Source: a virus. Taken from it: a stretch of DNA of 64,000 bases. The translations under genes were made by a program, and so were the position numbers. The DNA is taken from the IMG/VR virus record IMGVR_UViG_3300027759_003534, positions 64,001 through 128,000 of that record; one strand, 5' to 3'. The notes under the pieces are model-generated. The model did no database searches. It worked only from the letters and a program-made list of their open reading frames with translations, and was not told the DNA's origin. Below, in pieces: positions 382 through 18,199 of the stretch (the stretch's first letter is position 1; every line of letters begins with the position of its first letter).

Positions 382-1203
382 TTAGCTTGTGTAGTTTTCT
401 ACAATAGCAAGATCTAAAGCGCCTGTTGCCAATTGCTCTGAACCGTTGGTTCCCCATGTGTCAACTTCGGCACCGGATTTGGCTGTTGTGCCTTCGTCAC
501 TGAAGAAGTTGTCAGCGTATACCACATTGTTAACAACCTGATCTGCATTCCAAACATCCCCGGTGTTAGCAACACCGCCAACTTCGCCGCCAGCAAAGTT
601 TTGTAGGAACTTGTTGGTCAACTTACTGATTGCTGTTTCAACAGAGTCGTTACTAAAATAACTAATACTCATGTTTCCAGCAGTTGGTGTTAAATCACTT
701 GTTAATACACAAATACCAACTTCTTGAGCTGTGCCAGTGGTGCCTGCACCAGCGGCTGCTGTTGGTGTGAAAACAGTACCTACACCATAGCCTGCTGGAG
801 CACCCATGGCTGTCCAGTTAGTATCGCCAACTACTCGAATACGTAGTGCCACTGATGGTGATCCACCGATTACTGCGTTTTCTGGATCAATGCCAGCGTT
901 AGTAGATACCAAAAACTTGTGTGAACCTTTTTGACGGATGATTAATCCGGCTGCTTGACCGCTGGAACTATTAGTAATATTTACTTCGCACTTGACTACT
1001 GGATAGTTTGCAGTGGCCACTGTTGGAGGCTGAACACCACCAACTACGCCAAGATATTCTGTGCCAGTCCAAGTATTACTTGGGTACACAGGTGCTGTTA
1101 AACTTGTTAGTGCATTGAAACCAATATCAACACCAGGGTTTGCACCGGTACTGGCGTTATAACTAGCTTCGGTAATTTTTTTGATTTTAAGAGGACGTCC
1201 CAT
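382..1203 (-). CDS. Putative virion structural protein (273 aa, Gly/Thr/Ala-rich)
   Basis: Long ORF, strong SD AAGGAG, late promoter at 1298-1303, lies downstream of the head genes. Function inferred from context only. Confidence 0.55.
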   Translation of the reverse strand: MGRPLKIKKITEASYNASTGANPGVDIGFNALTSLTAPVYPSNTWTGTEYLGVVGGVQPPTVATANYPVVKCEVNITNSSSGQAAGLIIRQKGSHKFLVSTNAGIDPENAVIGGSPSVALRIRVVGDTNWTAMGAPAGYGVGTVFTPTAAAGAGTTGTAQEVGICVLTSDLTPTAGNMSISYFSNDSVETAISKLTNKFLQNFAGGEVGGVANTGDVWNADQVVNNVVYADNFFSDEGTTAKSGAEVDTWGTNGSEQLATGALDLAIVENYTS

Positions 1204-1292
1204 TTTGTTTTCTCCTTAAAGAAGTCCGATCGGAGTTCTAGTCCGTACGCGGTAGGGTTCTAGTCCGCCGCATAAAACGCATGATTGCGTTG
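1204..1292 (-). promoter_or_regulatory. Structured ~89-nt 5' UTR with repeated CGGACTAGAAC stem-loops
   Basis: The 11-mer occurs twice (1235-1245, 1257-1267) and CGGACT a third time (1223-1228). Hairpins: ACGCA/TGCGT, TATGCGG/CCGCGTA, CGGA/TCCG, and CTTCT/AGGAG covering the SD. Confidence 0.55.
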
Positions 1293-12805: not shown

Positions 12806-13020
12806 TACTAGACTCTGATAGCATCTCCAACATGGTTGATGCTATGGAAAAAGAAACACGCGACATTCGGCTTGATGTTTTAAAATTGTGTTGGTATATG
12901 AGAGGCGGTGTAACATATGAAGAAGCCATGCAGATGAGTCAGCAAGAGCGTGGCATTATCAACGATATTGTCAAAGACAATTACGAAACAACTAAGAAAT
13001 CCGGAATGCCGCACTTTTAA
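12784..13020 (+). CDS. gp51-like extension, probably translated by a -1 frameshift from the gp26-like gene
   Basis: T-TTT-TTC at 12784-12790. The -1 frame is open from there (FFRERLLVLDSDSISN) into the track ORF 12832..13020 (KLCWYMRGGVTYEEAMQMSQQER). No SD before ATG 12832. Confidence 0.7.
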   Translation, partial: FFRERLLVLDSDSISNMVDAMEKETRDIRLDVLKLCWYMRGGVTYEEAMQMSQQERGIINDIVKDNYETTKKSGMPHF

Positions 13021-13529
13021 TGTTAAAATTAGACACAGTACAATACGAAATAGAACGCTGGATAGAAACGTTTGTAGAGGTTCCGCACCCAGCCCTAGGA
13101 GGCTGGGCTCCGTGTCCGTATGCTAGAAAAGCCAGACTAGACAGAGACTTCGAGGTTAGACTAGGGTTAGCACCCCTGCACGACTTGATTAAAATTAGTA
13201 AAAACGGATTGGGCGGCAAGAGTGTTGTTGTCATTGTCTACGATCCTAAACATTTTACATATGAGTCTTTTAGTAAGGATTTAGAAACTGCCAATAAAGA
13301 ATTTTTATTACCAAATAATTTATTGGTTTTAGAGGATCACCCGGGTGATCCAGAAATTGTCAACGGTGTTAGTATGAATCAAGGAACCTACGCACTAGCA
13401 TTAGTGCAGAGTCTCAGCGACTTAAATGAAAAAGCCCAACTTGTTGCCAAGAAGGGCTTTTATGACACATGGCCAGAAGAGTACTTAACCGCCTTGTTTA
13501 GACATCGTAAAGATCCGCGACAGATTTAA
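13020..13529 (+). CDS. DUF1415-like protein
   Basis: RWIETFVE...PCPYARKA and LEDHP motifs. Confidence 0.55.
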   Translation: MLKLDTVQYEIERWIETFVEVPHPALGGWAPCPYARKARLDRDFEVRLGLAPLHDLIKISKNGLGGKSVVVIVYDPKHFTYESFSKDLETANKEFLLPNNLLVLEDHPGDPEIVNGVSMNQGTYALALVQSLSDLNEKAQLVAKKGFYDTWPEEYLTALFRHRKDPRQI

Positions 13530-14175
13530 TCTTGCTGTCGCGTCGACATAGTTGGCGATATTGTTCTGCATTAGCTGTCCACTCTACTCCGTCCCACCAC
13601 TCAAATCCTTGTATGTCGGCCTTGTACAAACTGCTGCGCTCGTATCCGGGTCCTAGATAAACAAATTCATACCCGGCTTGTTTAGCCCAGGCAATTTCGT
13701 GTTCTAAACTGCAACTGCCCAATCTGCTAGAAGGTACGCTATAGTCCCATACAAACAATGCTGTTTCGATTGACCTCGGCGTGTAGTGTCTGAGTTTGGC
13801 CCAAGCTACCATTTCGTTGCTATCGTTGTAGTAGGCCATAAACTGATCAAACGGCAAGTGCTCGCCTACTTCAAAATATTTTTTAAACTTTTTGTAGTAG
13901 CAATAGGCAGTATAGATATGATCCATTTCTGCCACGGGCAGGGGTTTGCTCATTATATGTGCTGATTGGATTAATGCATAGTTGGTGTCGGTAGTACGCA
14001 CACGACAGCTACGGCTTTGATACCAGTGTGCCTGGCCTCGATCTACTGTGAGTAGGAATCCCATGGCCAGTGCTGTATCGTATTCCTCTGGAGAAACATC
14101 AACTAGACTGCACCCAAAGTGAAAACATTCGCCTTGTTCCTGGTGACCAAAATTATGACTGAACTGAATTTTCAT
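13498..14175 (-). CDS. ATE1/Bpt-like aminoacyl-tRNA--protein transferase (GNAT fold, 225 aa; start revised to 14175)
   Basis: YDTALAMGF...WYQSRSCRVR, and C-terminal LGSCSLEHEIAWAKQAGYEFVYLGPGY...YKADIQGFEWWDG, matching the ATE_C pattern LG..S.L.EI..A...G..Y.YLG....YK. Confidence 0.7.
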   Translation of the reverse strand: MKIQFSHNFGHQEQGECFHFGCSLVDVSPEEYDTALAMGFLLTVDRGQAHWYQSRSCRVRTTDTNYALIQSAHIMSKPLPVAEMDHIYTAYCYYKKFKKYFEVGEHLPFDQFMAYYNDSNEMVAWAKLRHYTPRSIETALFVWDYSVPSSRLGSCSLEHEIAWAKQAGYEFVYLGPGYERSSLYKADIQGFEWWDGVEWTANAEQYRQLCRRDSKIKSVADLYDV

Positions 14176-14213
14176 ATAATTATGTATGTACTTTACCACT
14201 CAAGGAAAAAATA

Positions 14214-14549
14214 ATGGCAGACTTATACACAATATGGGCAAACAAAGAAGGCGACATTAGCGACATTGATTTTGTAAACAACATGAAGGGTTTTTTGCAA
14301 CATCTTGTAGACGAAGATAAAATGATATCATTTAGAATTACTCGATGCAAGATGGGTTTTCGCAGTGTAGCAGACATGCCCGAATGGTTTATTATTATGG
14401 AATTTAAGGATATGGCACAGATTGATGAAGCATTCCATCGTGTTGCTCCACTAAAGGGCGAACTCGAAGACAAACATCGTAGCTTTAATCAATTTGTTGC
14501 AGGAGACATTCAACATGCACTTTGGCGAGATTATCCTGATACATTCTAA
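14214..14549 (+). CDS. DUF6614-like small alpha/beta-barrel protein (111 aa)
   Basis: DLYTIWAN...DIDFVNNMKGFLQHL...FRITRCKMGF...EWFIIMEFKDMAQIDEAF; SD AAGGA. Confidence 0.55.
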   Translation: MADLYTIWANKEGDISDIDFVNNMKGFLQHLVDEDKMISFRITRCKMGFRSVADMPEWFIIMEFKDMAQIDEAFHRVAPLKGELEDKHRSFNQFVAGDIQHALWRDYPDTF

Positions 14550-14557
14550 GTGGTACT

Positions 14558-14579
14558 AAAAGATTAGCTACGCTAATCT
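14558..14579 (-). terminator. Intrinsic terminator closing the GIY-YIG/ncRNA transcript (possibly bidirectional)
   Basis: AGATTAGC-GTA-GCTAATCT-TTT. Confidence 0.7.
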
Positions 14580-14978
14580 GTGTCTTTCGCTTTAGCTCAG
14601 ACACATTGTTTCTTCTTACGCATTATCCAGATTATGTGGTCACAATTCACCGTATGCACGGTGAATTGACTCTTTTCACATTATCCGAGTGACAGCAGTC
14701 ATTTATTATAAAGAGATTGTATGTACCACCATACACGGAGGCGGTTGACCGGTACCCCCTACTCTAGCTTCACAAATCAACGGAACCCTAGTGACCCGAT
14801 AACAAATCCAAGTCCTACGAGCATGAGTTGTATCTTTTTCTACAGAGCTCAAACCATTTGTTGCCTTAAGTTAGCAATTGCCTTTCGCACACAAGATTAT
14901 CCGGACCGGGTATCTCACCGTTCCTCCTTGCAAGTCTAGCATCCTAGACCAAACATAGCGGATTGTTGCCTATCTGGT
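14558..14978 (-). ncRNA. Candidate large structured non-coding RNA (~420 nt) of unknown family
   Basis: Non-coding gap between convergent genes, almost entirely tiled by helices. Several stems need G-U pairs that exist only on the minus strand. It ends in a terminator hairpin. Confidence 0.7.
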
Positions 14979-15407
14979 TTAAATTTTGTTTTTTATGTGA
15001 CTACCGTGTATTCGGCACACTATCTGCCCATTGTAGTAGTCGTCTGACTCTAATACTCTATGATTGAATTGTTCTCTAGCTTCTATGTAACTACACGCGG
15101 CCTTTGATGTACAATAAAATAATATTTCTCTTGTGAAGTGGTCAGCGCCCAGCGCCTCAATGTCTTTGTTGAGTTGATCGTTGCTGCCATAATACAGTTG
15201 CCAGTCAGAATCTATTTTGCTTTTAATTCGTTTACGTTTCTTGTTGCCGTTCTTTAATTTTACTACTTTGTATGTGGTTTTACTAAATTTTGCTAATTTC
15301 TTTCCAATATATTTTCTACCAGATACGTTATTTGTGATCAAATAAACAAAGCCGACACAATCTTCGGGTAACGTTTCAATTTGAGAGTTTTCGTACAACC
15401 ATACCAT
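14979..15407 (-). CDS. Minimal GIY-YIG endonuclease (T4 EndoII/DenA-like size, 142 aa)
   Basis: GFVYLITNNVSGRKYIGKK, YYGS, FTREIL, IEAREQ, YYN; basic insert KLKNGNKKRKRIKSK; no C-terminal DNA-binding domain. TAACTA at 15415-15420 lies 7 nt upstream. Confidence 0.9.
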   Translation of the reverse strand: MVWLYENSQIETLPEDCVGFVYLITNNVSGRKYIGKKLAKFSKTTYKVVKLKNGNKKRKRIKSKIDSDWQLYYGSNDQLNKDIEALGADHFTREILFYCTSKAACSYIEAREQFNHRVLESDDYYNGQIVCRIHGSHIKNKI

Positions 15408-15425
15408 GGACTAATAGTTATCATT

Positions 15426-16439
15426 TTACCACTCGGTTGCATATTTTTCATCAACCCTGCCTGCTACACACTTAGTTTGGCATTCTTGCCACCCAAACGT
15501 TTTAAATGTTGTCTCCCAAAAATTATCAGTTACTGCGTCGGTAAGTGTGCGCTGATTTAAATCAAATTTAGTAGCAAGATCTTTCCACTGTGAGTTGTGA
15601 CTGTATCGGTTAGCTACCCAACAGCAGGGAAATAATCTACCTTGTGCATCAATGTAAAGCCCTTTGTTGCCAATTTCACACAGGGGTTTTACACCGTTGA
15701 CTTCTTGCACTGAGTTGTATAATTGTATATTCTGCTTGTTTACTTGTGAATTAAGACCACGTGAACTTAATATTGTAACCTTTCTTTCAAATCTATGCGA
15801 TCCGCTGACAAACTTTTTGCTAGGTTCGAGTGGGTCGTTGGTGCCATAATTAGGATACACGCTACCAAACTTAGTAGATTTAGTAAGTTGAAACGCATCC
15901 ATTCCTAATTTTACTGCTAGAGATTGCATATAGTCAACTTGGGCTTCGTTAAACTTAAATGCTATAGCCGCCCATACTAGGCTACATTTGCTTGTAAGCC
16001 TAAGAGTCTCAATGCCTTGAATGATTGATACAAAATCACTGTTTACCCTGTACAAATTATTACTAGCATTATCGTAACCGTCTATACTAAAATGAACAGT
16101 ATCTTTGTCAGTGAGTACACTGCCTAGTTCTTGCCACCACTCTGGTTTCTTGTGTGAGCCGTTGGTAATAATAACAATCTCAACAGGCTTAATGCCTTTA
16201 ATGTATTCAACAACCGTAATGAGATCGTGTGCATATATAGGATCCCCATCATCTCCACAAAATGTAATTTTTTCTAAATTAGATAGAATAAAGTCTGGAG
16301 TAAAGTTACGTTTAAAAAATTCTAAATTTAATTCGGTATTAATTAAACTGTCTGGAACTTCTTGACGAGCACACCGAGGACAACGTAATGTACACTTTGA
16401 ACTTATTTCAATATGAAAGTGCCAAGTAGCTAATGTCAC
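15426..16439 (-). CDS. Radical SAM enzyme with C-terminal SPASM/Twitch domain
   Basis: CTLRCPRC (CxxxCxxC), FCGDDGDP, ITNGS, CEIG...YIDAQGRLFPCC...CQTKC; ATGA-coupled to gp46. Confidence 0.9.
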   Translation of the reverse strand: MTLATWHFHIEISSKCTLRCPRCARQEVPDSLINTELNLEFFKRNFTPDFILSNLEKITFCGDDGDPIYAHDLITVVEYIKGIKPVEIVIITNGSHKKPEWWQELGSVLTDKDTVHFSIDGYDNASNNLYRVNSDFVSIIQGIETLRLTSKCSLVWAAIAFKFNEAQVDYMQSLAVKLGMDAFQLTKSTKFGSVYPNYGTNDPLEPSKKFVSGSHRFERKVTILSSRGLNSQVNKQNIQLYNSVQEVNGVKPLCEIGNKGLYIDAQGRLFPCCWVANRYSHNSQWKDLATKFDLNQRTLTDAVTDNFWETTFKTFGWQECQTKCVAGRVDEKYATEW

Positions 16440-18199
16440 GCTATTTCCACATCCGTATTGTAACTGGTAAAGCCGCCTTCTTTGACAACCTTGAGAATAT
16501 TTTCAACTCGACCAGCTAGTTCATCTCTATGACTTACTAACCAAATACTCTTGTGTCGTTCACGACTCATGTGTTTTAATAAAGCTAACGCATTTTCTAC
16601 ACCTGCTGTATCTAAGCCGTTGTCGATCATTTCGTCTATAAACAATAGATTAATAGGTTGATACAAGGACTCAAACACATCGCGGAATGCCCAGCTCATG
16701 CTTAAAATCAAACGATTGCGTTCACCGCGACTTAAATTATCAAAGTCTAGCTCGCGGCCTAACTCTTCGATACTGACAGTCAAGTCGTTTTGGAATACCA
16801 CGGTATGTGGCAACCCTACACGATCTAAATAGTGTGTGAGCCTGACATTTAGATAGCTAAGATTCTGTTCAATAATCTTTTTACGGATAAAACTGTCTTT
16901 ACTAGTGAGCAACTTGAGCAAGAATTCTTGATGTTCTTGTAAGCGAGTAAGTTCATTAAGTGCGTCATATGTTATCTGTTGTAAGGCTTGTTGTTGCATT
17001 TCCTCAATCTGTTCACCGTAAGGATCTGTTTCAGTTTGTTTAGCAACAATCTGTTGTTCTAAGTTAGCCAATGTAGCTTGATGTTGTATAGCGTCTGACT
17101 CTTTGTCATAAAACATCTTAGGTGGTTTGCCTAACGTGCCCAAGGCTGTGTGGGCAGTCTCCAACTCTGATAATAAGGTGCTAAATTCTTGGCCACTCGC
17201 TCGAGCTGTAGCCAACTCCGTCTTCTTGCTTTCCAAGACTTGTTCGTGCTTACTGTCGTGGAAGGCCTGTCCGCACGTATGACACTCATGATTCTCGAGC
17301 GTTTCAATTTCTTTTGATAGTTTGGCCGCCAGCTTTTCTTCTCGATTAATATCCAATTTGATCCGCGAGATCTGACCAGATAGTTCATTGATATCTTTCC
17401 TGGTTTGATCCCACGCCTTGTGATCTTTGTGCGCCGCAATCTCGTCTTCAATCTGTATATTCTGTAACGCCTTAAGGGCTTTCTTAAGTTCTTTGATATC
17501 TTCGCCATGTTTAGTGACCCATAATGTTTGTCTACGCTTCAATGATTCGATCTGTTCTTCAATACGTTTGTTGGCTTCTTGAACAGCACGGATACGGAAT
17601 TCTTCTTGTGTAATGCCTTCTTTAGTAGCTCTATTATGTTCTTTAATCTTGTCAGCACGCTCACTCAGCATGGTAATACCTAATAATTGTTCAATGATAG
17701 TACGCTGATCGTTTGCTTTGAGACTTAAAAAAGGTTCTGTATAAGTGTTAAGTGCTAGGATATGTTTGAACATATCGTGACTTAGTCCTAAGGTTTGTTC
17801 AATAGCGTCCTGTGTTTCTCTGCTGTCGCCCTGTGCTTCATCGGTGACCGCTTGTTCTTGATTGTTTACAAAGAATCTTAGCAAGTTGGGTTTACGACCA
17901 CGTTCGATACGATAATCTTTGCCACCTACACTAAAATCTAAACTGACCAACATATTCTTGTTGTTGGTTTTGTTTACAAGATTATCCTTACGGATATTGC
18001 TGAGTGCTTGCCCGTATAGACTATAGCTAAGAGCATTGATAATTGTAGTCTTGCCGGTTCCGTTACGTGATCCGTCACCACCCAGGTCTAAATTTTCGCC
18101 TAAGACAAGCGTCAAGTCCTTACGGTCAAAGTCGATTGCCTGAGTAGCGTTACCTACGCTCATAAAGTTTTTAACGGTTAGATTTTTTATATGGATCAT
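16436..18199 (-). CDS. gp46: Recombination endonuclease ATPase subunit, gp46/SbcC/Rad50-like
   Basis: KNFMSVGN, Walker A NGTGKTT, Zn hook CHTCGQ, signature LSRGE, Walker B LLFIDE, H-loop VSH. Confidence 0.96.
   Translation of the reverse strand: MIHIKNLTVKNFMSVGNATQAIDFDRKDLTLVLGENLDLGGDGSRNGTGKTTIINALSYSLYGQALSNIRKDNLVNKTNNKNMLVSLDFSVGGKDYRIERGRKPNLLRFFVNNQEQAVTDEAQGDSRETQDAIEQTLGLSHDMFKHILALNTYTEPFLSLKANDQRTIIEQLLGITMLSERADKIKEHNRATKEGITQEEFRIRAVQEANKRIEEQIESLKRRQTLWVTKHGEDIKELKKALKALQNIQIEDEIAAHKDHKAWDQTRKDINELSGQISRIKLDINREEKLAAKLSKEIETLENHECHTCGQAFHDSKHEQVLESKKTELATARASGQEFSTLLSELETAHTALGTLGKPPKMFYDKESDAIQHQATLANLEQQIVAKQTETDPYGEQIEEMQQQALQQITYDALNELTRLQEHQEFLLKLLTSKDSFIRKKIIEQNLSYLNVRLTHYLDRVGLPHTVVFQNDLTVSIEELGRELDFDNLSRGERNRLILSMSWAFRDVFESLYQPINLLFIDEMIDNGLDTAGVENALALLKHMSRERHKSIWLVSHRDELAGRVENILKVVKEGGFTSYNTDVEIA

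What the first reader, a model, noticed from the sequence alone, without database searches (positions are those of the whole stretch)
14558..15420. A ~420-nt ornate non-coding RNA co-transcribed with a DNA-binding-domain-less GIY-YIG nuclease: candidate new RNP system
Seen: directly after the GIY-YIG stop codon the minus strand folds almost end to end. Helices: ACCAGAUAG/CUAUGUUUGGU; GUCUAG-GAUG-CUAGAC (14949-14934); GGAACGG-UGAGAUAC-CCGGUCC; UGAG..UGUA-GAAAAAGA-UACA..CUCA (14851-14824); GACUUGGAU/AUCGGGUC; GGGGG-UAC-CGG-UCAA-CCG-CCUCC (14759-14737); UGUAUG/CAUACA (14735-14718); UCGGAUAAUGUG/CACAUAAUCUGG enclosing a perfect 11-bp hairpin (14668-14643); UGUGUCU/AGACACA; then a terminator. Several stems depend on G-U pairs that would be A-C on the other strand, which favours selection on a minus-strand RNA. 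ACGGUGA occurs twice, allowing an alternative long-range pairing. The nuclease is only a catalytic domain with a very basic insert. Known: phages encode large ornate ncRNAs (GOLLD, ROOL), and nuclease-adjacent RNAs (HEARO/omegaRNA) proved to be guides. Inference: the RNA is a scaffold or guide for the nuclease, or an independent ncRNA or ribozyme. Caveat: T4 EndoII is a similarly minimal GIY-YIG that needs no RNA, so the adjacency could be incidental.
Basis: partly seen in the sequence, partly recalled or inferred. Interest (0 to 1): 0.87.

Follow-up and report, generated by a model that had tools for sequence, protein, structure and literature searches.

The report
Twin-box structured phage RNA beside nuclease
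The gene-free 420 bases behind a small nuclease gene of this uncultured freshwater T4-like phage encode a real, knotted non-coding RNA that is common in such phages; it carries one short word twice that always changes in step, its job is unknown, and the nuclease looks like a neighbour, not a partner.

Summary
Window 14550-14985 (minus strand) has no conserved reading frame and is conserved in 186 uncultured phage contigs (132 distinct full-length copies), always on the strand of the upstream gene.

I add a strongly covarying pseudoknot.

On an unfitted MAFFT alignment, 84% of cells pair against 73% in shuffles. Double changes number 896 against 325 (0/500 shuffles reach either).

The RNA is a divergent member of a wider family. 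In the sister clade the 5' third is the orphan Rfam motif Polynucleobacter-1 (RF01718). The window's own copy does not pass that model, and the 3' two-thirds are uncatalogued.

The most unusual feature is a pair of 11-nt boxes (CUNRGAURAW) 58 nt apart. Their three variable positions are identical in 102/102 RNAs of the two main clades, across six states that recur in both clades. No partner for them was found.

The RNP or guide reading is not supported:
- The RNA occurs without the nuclease.
- The nuclease family occurs without the RNA.
- Genes are inserted between the two in some contigs.
- No nuclease residue tracks the boxes.

Other agents of this scan had already found this family, its twin boxes and the Polynucleobacter-1 link on other DNA.

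The parts
14979..15407 (-). 142-aa GIY-YIG protein, catalytic domain only. It is the upstream neighbour of the RNA.
   Evidence: Pfam PF19835 SegE_GIY-YIG, E 2.3e-32, profile positions 1-123 of 123. Homologues of about this length occur in 234 phage records.
14550..14985 (-). The whole conserved non-coding RNA element. RNA position p corresponds to window coordinate 14986-p.
   Evidence: nhmmer homologues in 186 contigs, always on the same strand as the upstream gene. No conserved ORF. Covariation statistics.
14824..14932 (-). 5' domain helices, in RNA positions: P3 (54-57/93-96), P4 hairpin (62-68/77-83), P5 hairpin (109-113/121-125), P6 (135-138/159-162 and 142-144/155-157).
   Evidence: Counts within the window's clade: 93-100% paired, with compensatory types such as GC/GU/AU, CG/UA/AU and UA/GC/CG. 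This domain takes the place of the Polynucleobacter-1 motif of the sister clade but does not pass RF01718.
14789..14817 (-). Hairpin Pa (169-177/188-197). Its loop (179-187, window 14799-14807) is the 5' strand of the pseudoknot.
   Evidence: RNAalifold; helix 1, 93% paired.
14701..14709 (-). 3' strand of the pseudoknot (277-285). It pairs with the loop of Pa.
   Evidence: Alignment-free test: own partner -6.05 kcal/mol, foreign partners -1.72 kcal/mol, with 52 and 64 distinct sequences. Examples of matched pairs: CUGGCG/CGCCGG, UUAGCG/CGCUAA, ACUAGCA/UGCUAG.
14712..14765 (-). Three-way core: Pb (221-224/271-274) encloses Pc (GGGGG-UAC-CGG-UCAA-CCG-CCUCC, 227-249) and the clade-specific hairpin Pd (252-267).
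   Evidence: Pc holds most of the invariant bases, and its outer pairs vary as AU:63, GU:50, UA:15. Pb self -5.04 against non-self -2.28; Pc -7.87 against -4.83. Pd is absent in the sister clade.
14679..14689 (-). Twin box 1 (CUCGGAUAAUG, RNA 297-307).
   Evidence: Positions 300, 304 and 306 are always identical to positions 358, 362 and 364. Mutual information is 0.85-0.97 bit over the whole alignment and equals the columns' full entropy within each clade. The identity holds in 44/44 and 58/58 RNAs.
14645..14666 (-). Hairpin Pf between the boxes (320-327/334-341).
   Evidence: 96% of cells paired, with CG/UA/AU, GC/AU and CG/GC alternations. Self -11.9 against non-self -6.8.
14621..14632 (-). 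AUCU (354-357) pairs with RGAU of box 1. It overlaps twin box 2 (UCUGGAUAAUG, 355-365).
   Evidence: RGAU/AUCU is 93-98% Watson-Crick or G-U. Box identity is shown.
14579..14605 (-). Hairpin Pg (381-387/401-407) with tandem G.A pairs and an inner GC/GC stem.
   Evidence: Self -5.90 against non-self -1.52, with 91 and 67 distinct arm sequences. Pair types.
14562..14578 (-). Final hairpin Pt (408-414/418-424), which the convergent gene may share as a terminator.
   Evidence: All pairs covary (helices 16-19). Self -10.6 against non-self -3.2. The scan lists it as terminator-like on the plus strand only.

Best explanation
This is a stand-alone structured non-coding RNA gene of uncultured freshwater T4-like phages, some of them 346-kb jumbo phages. 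It belongs to a wider family whose sister clade starts with the orphan Polynucleobacter-1 motif.

Shown:
- About 420 nt fold into a 5' multi-hairpin domain, then a pseudoknot that wraps a three-way core with near-invariant bases.
- A 3' module follows: two identical 11-nt boxes flank a clamp hairpin, then come an A-rich linker and two more hairpins.

Inferred:
- The RNA is made as the tail of the upstream operon, or from its own promoter where that operon is missing. It then acts on its own, in trans.
- The folded body serves as a rigid frame. It presents the two boxes, which must stay identical because both meet the same kind of partner. That partner could be two copies of one partner, a bivalent one, or a complementary copy of the locus itself.
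- The GIY-YIG nuclease is a conserved neighbour, not a required partner.
For: Real RNA:
- No conserved ORF.
- 186 homologous loci, always in the one orientation.
- Covariation statistics with 0/500 shuffles reaching the observed values.
- Alignment-free self-versus-non-self tests support the pseudoknot and five helices.
- Frequent G-U/A-U alternation.

Family link: 18 of 18 sister-clade loci match RF01718 at 71-120 bits, exactly at the 5' third of the element. The 3' part is shared with the window.

Independence from the nuclease:
- RNA-only loci, and a TGnTATAAT promoter-like site upstream of the RNA in L164.
- ORFs inserted between nuclease and RNA.
- RNA-less nuclease homologues.
- No protein column tracks the box state.

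Twin boxes:
- Identity in 102 of 102 RNAs of the two main clades, with the same six states in each, so the match was kept through repeated independent changes.
- No other column of the RNA carries comparable information.
- No state-specific complement inside the RNA.
Against:
- No partner of the boxes was found nearby, in four long genomes, or in the nuclease. The bivalent-partner mechanism is therefore an inference from the covariation pattern alone.
- The 96% adjacency to the nuclease is stronger than for most other neighbours, so a looser functional tie cannot be excluded.
- The position at the operon end also fits a cis-acting 3' UTR.
Confidence: 0.55

Rival explanations
1. The RNA and the GIY-YIG nuclease form an RNP. 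The RNA scaffolds, guides or regulates the nuclease.
For: - The nuclease lies directly upstream on the same strand in 152 of 158 loci, including nucleases only 34-56% identical to the window's.
- The structured RNA starts at the stop codon.
- In L103 a different nuclease (PDDEXK_15) sits at the same place.
Against: - Six RNA loci have no GIY-YIG gene.
- An extra ORF lies between the two in at least 12 of the contigs inspected.
- Homologous nucleases in cultured phages have no such RNA.
- The basic loop is not specific to RNA-linked members.
- No nuclease residue covaries with the boxes: at most 0.3 of about 1 bit.
- There is no long variable guide segment.
Confidence: 0.1
2. The element is a cis-acting 3' UTR. 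The folded RNA protects or regulates the upstream operon transcript, or controls read-through at the convergent gene boundary.
For: - It always lies at the end of a same-strand gene run: after the nuclease, or after whatever ORF is inserted behind it.
- It ends in two covarying hairpins at a convergent junction.
- The 2010 catalogue marked Polynucleobacter-1 as possibly cis-regulatory (PMC2864571).
Against: - 420 nt with a pseudoknot, an invariant core and twin boxes is far more than 3'-end protection needs.
- In L164 the element stands behind a divergent promoter region with no upstream same-strand gene.
- The downstream context is variable: the window's neighbours recur in only 46 of 126 loci.
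Confidence: 0.15
3. The element acts at the level of DNA, or of RNA paired with its own DNA. Examples are an origin or R-loop primer, or a template-switch device. In such a device the RNA or a copy of one box must anneal to the other box, which would force the two boxes to stay identical.
For: - Identity (not complementarity) between two direct repeats is what one expects if a complementary copy of one repeat must pair with the other.
- No other partner was found.
- Direct repeats that bound a template for template jumping are what I recall of the DRT2 reverse-transcriptase ncRNA. The preprint I opened (10.64898/2026.09.22.753630) says only that this ncRNA is copied into a concatemeric cDNA; the repeats are from my own knowledge.
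- One natural variant, L087, has lost one whole unit between the extended repeats.
Against: - No reverse transcriptase in the window's record or in five long records, two of them complete.
- The box spacing varies from 55 to 59 nt.
- The rich RNA-level covariation, with many G-U pairs, shows selection on a folded RNA, not on duplex DNA.
- No replication data exist.
Confidence: 0.1
4. The element is a decayed coding region or a self-splicing intron remnant linked to a homing endonuclease.
For: GIY-YIG genes of T4-type phages are often intron-borne or free-standing homing genes (established knowledge of I-TevI and the Seg proteins).
Against: - No frame is conserved.
- No group I or II intron hit, even at E up to 10.
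- There is no downstream exon: the next gene is convergent.
- The nuclease is kept in 96% of loci, unlike a sporadic homing gene.
Confidence: 0.02

Closest known systems
Polynucleobacter-1 RNA motif (Rfam RF01718; Weinberg et al. 2010, PMC2864571)
   Same: In the sister clade of this RNA family, the first ~140 nt after the nuclease gene match RF01718 at 71-120 bits in 18 of 18 loci. Those RNAs share the whole 3' two-thirds with the window's RNA. The habitat is the same (fresh water), and the function is likewise unknown.
   Different: The window's own 5' domain does not match RF01718, even at E up to 10 on a 201-nt search. It has a related but rebuilt set of hairpins. The catalogued motif is 141 nt. 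The pseudoknot, the invariant core and the twin-box module, about 280 nt in all, are not in the Rfam model.
Large ornate RNAs of unknown function often carried by phages (GOLLD RF01998, ROOL RF03087)
   Same: A large, multi-domain, strongly covarying RNA of unknown function, encoded by phages and known mainly from metagenomes.
   Different: No sequence or structure match in Rfam. It is smaller, at about 420 nt. Self-assembly was not tested. The twin boxes have no described counterpart in those RNAs.
Nuclease-linked guide RNAs (HEARO/omegaRNA of IscB, TnpB)
   Same: A structured RNA lies next to a small nuclease gene in a mobile-element-rich genome.
   Different: The nuclease fold differs: GIY-YIG, not RuvC/HNH. 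There is no variable guide segment, co-occurrence is not obligatory in either direction, and RNA and protein do not covary.
Paired identical RNA sites that serve one partner: P4 phage immunity (seqA and seqC both pair with the CI RNA) and lambdoid nutL/nutR boxB. From my own knowledge, not tested here.
   Same: Two direct repeats in one phage stay identical to each other while differing between related phages.
   Different: In those systems the partner is known and lies nearby. Here none was found in the RNA, within 3 kb, or in four long genomes.

Membership tests
Polynucleobacter-1 RNA (RF01718) | Covariance-model score at or above the gathering score of 37 bits | tested here: not met
   The window has no hit at gathering, none at E<=10 on 1.1 kb, and none at E<=10 on 201 nt. 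Sister-clade loci score 71-120 bits.
Polynucleobacter-1 RNA (RF01718), wider family by descent | Homology of the rest of the RNA with RNAs that carry the motif, at the same genomic place | tested here: met
   nhmmer finds the window's 3' half in sister-clade loci at E 1e-5 to 1e-13. The element lies in the same position after the nuclease gene and on the same strand.
RNA-guided nuclease systems (OMEGA / HEARO type) | Obligatory co-occurrence of the RNA and its nuclease | tested here: not met
   RNA without nuclease in six loci. Nuclease without RNA in Melnitz, phiN3 and Variovorax phage.
RNA-guided nuclease systems (OMEGA / HEARO type) | A hypervariable guide segment at one end of a conserved scaffold | tested here: not met
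   Variation is spread over helices as compensatory changes. The only free variable sites are three positions in each twin box.
Group I / group II introns with a homing endonuclease ORF | Intron core recognised by Rfam models, and flanking exons of a host gene | tested here: not met
   No intron family at E<=10. The upstream gene ends before the nuclease gene, and the next gene downstream is convergent.
GOLLD / ROOL ornate RNAs | Match to RF01998 or RF03087 | tested here: not met
   No hit at either threshold.
SegE-like GIY-YIG domain proteins (PF19835) | Full-length match to the domain, with the GIY/YIG, Arg, Glu and Asn motifs | tested here: met
   E 2.3e-32 over profile positions 1-123 of 123. 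Invariant Y22, Y33-I34-G35, R93-E94, E109 and N126 across seven homologues.
DRT2-like template-jumping ncRNA | A reverse transcriptase encoded with the RNA | tested here: not met
   PF00078 is absent from the window's record and from five long records, two of them 99-100% complete.

The most novel reading that the evidence does not exclude
The twin boxes stay identical because the RNA works through a complementary copy of itself. That copy could be the template DNA strand in an R-loop, a primer, or a copied strand. It must re-anneal from one box to the other across the clamp hairpin. This would make the RNA a self-addressed priming or template-switch device of jumbo T4-like phages. Alternatively, the two boxes bind two copies of a still unseen partner that evolves quickly, which would define 'specificity types' among competing phages.
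Probability: 0.12. Interest if true: 0.85.

Novelty: new variant of a known kind. Interest (0 to 1): 0.6.

Why it matters
An orphan RNA motif catalogued in 2010 turns out to be only the first third of a much larger, pseudoknotted RNA. That RNA is a near-constant feature of a large group of uncultured freshwater T4-like phages, jumbo phages among them.

Large structured RNAs with invariant cores have usually proved to carry out sophisticated functions.

The twin boxes give a sharp, testable handle. Two short words stay letter-for-letter identical through repeated independent changes, so something reads both.

The result also removes a tempting but unsupported idea, that of a GIY-YIG RNA-guided nuclease.

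Tried and rejected
- **Folding energy as evidence:** both strands give z about -2.8, so it is uninformative.
- **RNAalifold on the whole two-clade alignment:** it failed because the 5' half is misaligned.
- **Naive diagonal helix search:** swamped by 3-bp chance matches.
- **Internal partner for the twin boxes:** no column exceeds about 0.5 bit against 0.85-1.13 bit between the boxes. There is no state-specific complement in the 5' part, the 3' part or the middle of the RNA. AUCU pairs with only 4 nt of the box.
- **Nearby complement of the boxes:** none at a conserved place within -3 to +1.5 kb.
- **Genome-wide complement or mimic of the boxes:** four cross-genome coincidences in homologous genes were found, but the motif positions do not line up.
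- **Nuclease as reader of the boxes:** no covarying residue.
- **Mini-ORFs ending at the boxes, or T4 gene-60-type ribosome hopping:** the spacing is not kept in frame (15, 16 or 17 nt) and early stops occur. No ORF leads into box 1.
- **Reverse-transcriptase template jumping:** no reverse transcriptase found.
- **Alternative helix 213-217 with 321-325:** only weak, clade-level support.
- **Box 2 or AUCU pairing with the last hairpin:** no support.
- **Cultured phages:**
  - blastn with three divergent copies found nothing.
- The core pattern, the nuclease protein and my covariance model R1 found nothing in E. coli phage 121Q.
- **Bacterial genomes:** only 1 of 120 pattern matches is a real copy, and it lies in a locus of only 1.7 kb.

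Full report
**What is there.** The window is part of a 182.6-kb IMG/VR virus record. On the minus strand lie a gp46-like SMC/AAA protein (16436-18199), a radical-SAM protein (15426-16439) and a 142-aa GIY-YIG protein (14979-15407). Then come about 420 nt without a credible ORF. A convergent DUF6614 gene follows on the plus strand (14214-14549). Rfam finds nothing in this stretch at its gathering scores or at E up to 10. ARAGORN finds no tRNA or tmRNA.

**Is it more than chance?** Folding energy alone is not informative: both strands give z about -2.8. Comparative data are.
- A protein-anchored scan of viral contigs gave 80 loci with nucleases 69-94% identical to the window's. nhmmer found the non-coding element in 60 of them, always downstream and on the same strand.
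- A scan with a 17-nt core pattern that ignores the nuclease gave 118 more loci, of which 112 hold the element.
- In all, 186 loci and 132 distinct full-length copies were collected.
- None of the six frames is consistently open.

**Structure.** Two main clades exist. The window belongs to clade A.
- On a MAFFT alignment of 131 sequences that was not fitted to any structure, my 63-pair model (nine named helices, one of them the pseudoknot) scores as follows:

  | Measure | Observed | Shuffled | Shuffles reaching it |
  |---|---|---|---|
  | Cells paired | 84.4% | 72.7% | 0/500 |
  | Double-sided changes | 896 | 325 | 0/500 |
  | Covariation score | 0.298 | 0.142 | 0/500 |

  With the partner columns slid, pairing falls to 36-45% and the covariation score to 0.05-0.08.
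- MAFFT misregisters some helices between the clades. I therefore added an alignment-free test: each sequence's own partner strand against the partner strands of other sequences.

  | Helix | Own partner (kcal/mol) | Foreign partners (kcal/mol) |
  |---|---|---|
  | Pseudoknot | -6.05 | -1.72 |
  | Pb | -5.0 | -2.3 |
  | Pc | -7.9 | -4.8 |
  | Pf | -11.9 | -6.8 |
  | Pg | -5.9 | -1.5 |
  | Pt | -10.6 | -3.2 |

- The pseudoknot joins the loop of hairpin Pa (window 14799-14807) to 14701-14709. It encloses a three-way core whose arm Pc (GGUACCGG.CAACCGCC) holds most of the invariant bases.
- Within clade A the 5' helices P3-P6 are 93-100% paired, with compensatory types.
His second (GUCUAG/CUAGAC) pairs in only 20-58% of cells there, although other sequences show a differently spelled hairpin at that place by eye. 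Of his long helix around the 11-bp hairpin only 4 bp are conserved.
- Abundant G-U/A-U alternation and the fixed orientation point to the minus strand as the RNA strand.

**Relation to known RNAs.** Notes from other agents of this scan said that this family is linked to the Polynucleobacter-1 motif. I tested that.
- All 18 clade-B loci examined hit RF01718 at 71-120 bits (gathering score 37), exactly over the first ~140 nt of the element. The two clade-A loci and the window do not.
- The 2010 paper lists the motif only as a candidate from Burkholderiales and fresh water, with no function (PMC2864571).
- The family is therefore partly catalogued. The window's copy is a divergent variant, and the 3' two-thirds are not in the Rfam model.
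- I could not reproduce the note that a related family occurs in E. coli phage 121Q. The core pattern, the nuclease protein and my covariance model R1 all find nothing there.
- blastn against 50,697 phage records finds nothing either.
- Among 120 pattern matches in bacterial and archaeal genomes, only one short locus is a true copy.

**The twin boxes.** Two 11-nt direct repeats, CUCGGAUAAUG (14679-14689) and UCUGGAUAAUG (14621-14631), flank hairpin Pf.
- Three positions vary among phages: R, R (rarely C) and W (rarely G).
- In every one of 44 clade-A and 58 clade-B RNAs the two boxes carry the same letters. The same six states recur in both clades, and three more states (AGG, ACA, TAT) turn up elsewhere, ACA once in clade A.
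- Mutual information between the boxes is 0.85-0.97 bit over the whole alignment and equals the full entropy of the columns within each clade.
- This is identity, not complementarity, and it was kept through repeated independent changes.
- I looked for the third party in the following places and found none:
  - Within the RNA.
  - In the adjacent AUCU, which pairs with only four box nucleotides.
  - Within 3 kb.
  - In the nuclease protein.
  - Across four long genomes, one of them complete.
- Mini-ORF and ribosome-hopping readings fail on frame and spacing.
- Template jumping by a reverse transcriptase fails for lack of any such enzyme in six records, two of them complete.
- One natural variant (L087) has lost one whole unit between the extended repeats.
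- The boxes remain unexplained. They are the best lead to function.

**RNA and nuclease.**
- The nuclease is upstream in 152 of 158 loci. But gp46 is kept in 138 of 158, while the window's downstream neighbours are kept in only 46 of 126. The RNA therefore marks the end of a conserved operon.
- The RNA also occurs in other settings:
  - behind a PDDEXK nuclease (L103);
  - behind a phosphorylase-like gene (L173);
  - behind a baseplate gene (L090);
  - behind unknown small ORFs (L095);
  - in L164, behind a divergent promoter region with a TGnTATAAT motif.
- At least 12 of the contigs inspected carry an extra ORF of 238-356 aa between nuclease and RNA (ten of these ORFs scanned).
- The nuclease family is widespread in cultured cyanophages, Melnitz, phiM12-like and other phages at the same length. 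There it has no such RNA.
- Its basic loop is common to RNA-linked and RNA-less members.
- Nothing therefore indicates an RNP, although a loose functional tie cannot be excluded.

**Most likely working.**
- Shown: it is a folded, pseudoknotted RNA under strong selection.
- Inferred: it is released from, or transcribed at the end of, an early or middle operon and acts in trans. Its rigid body presents two identical boxes either to two copies of one partner or to a complementary copy of its own locus.
- I give 0.55 to this composite. Within it, about 0.9 that it is a real structured RNA and about 0.8 that it does not depend on the nuclease. The bivalent-partner step is only the best available guess.
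- Rivals: cis-acting 3' UTR (0.15), nuclease RNP (0.10), DNA- or R-loop-level device (0.10), decayed gene or intron (0.02).

**Verdict.**
- Novelty: a new variant of a known kind, namely an extended and divergent form of an orphan Rfam motif and one more large ornate phage RNA.
- Interest is 0.6. The guide-RNA idea falls, but the size, the conservation and above all the concerted twin boxes make this a good target for experiment.
- Other agents of this scan reached similar conclusions on other genomes.

Noticed in passing
window 1201-1292 (-): Match to Rfam freshwater-2 RNA (RF02980): 63.6 bits against a gathering score of 49.9. It is the only Rfam family found in the window.
   Followed up: no
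window 13498-14199 (-), 14214-14549 (+), 13020-13529 (+): An ATE_C-like (arginyl-tRNA-protein transferase C-terminal) protein is flanked by DUF6614 and weak DUF6875 proteins. This trio lies downstream of the RNA in only 46 of 126 loci, so it is not tied to the RNA.
   Followed up: partly
L103:3893-4423 (-): In this divergent contig a PDDEXK_15 endonuclease (E 1.3e-26) sits between gp46 and the RNA, where the GIY-YIG gene normally lies.
   Followed up: partly
L087:8226-8700: A natural deletion variant of the RNA. About 70 nt between the two extended repeats (GUGA-ACUG...) are missing, which removes the 3' pseudoknot strand, box 1 and the clamp hairpin.
   Followed up: partly
L164:8430-8460 (-): A TGCTATAAT extended -10-like site lies about 120 nt upstream of the RNA, in a contig without the nuclease gene. 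The RNA may have its own promoter there.
   Followed up: no
L012, L013, L018, L020, L047, L052, L079, L094, L098, L106, L153, L200: ORFs of 238-356 aa are inserted between the nuclease gene and the RNA. Of the ten scanned, most have no Pfam family and one is methyltransferase-like. The site looks like a hot spot for gene insertion.
   Followed up: partly
G001 (record of L148), 346,856 bp with direct terminal repeats: At least some carriers of the RNA are complete jumbo phages of about 346 kb. Each of the four long records examined (G000, G001, G004, G005) holds one copy of the RNA.
   Followed up: partly
window RNA positions 213-217 and 336-340 (window 14769-14773 and 14646-14650): GUGAA occurs twice, and both copies are complementary to UUCAC (321-325). 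Position 215 covaries by identity with 338 and by pairing with 323. The alignment-free test gives only weak support for an alternative helix.
   Followed up: partly
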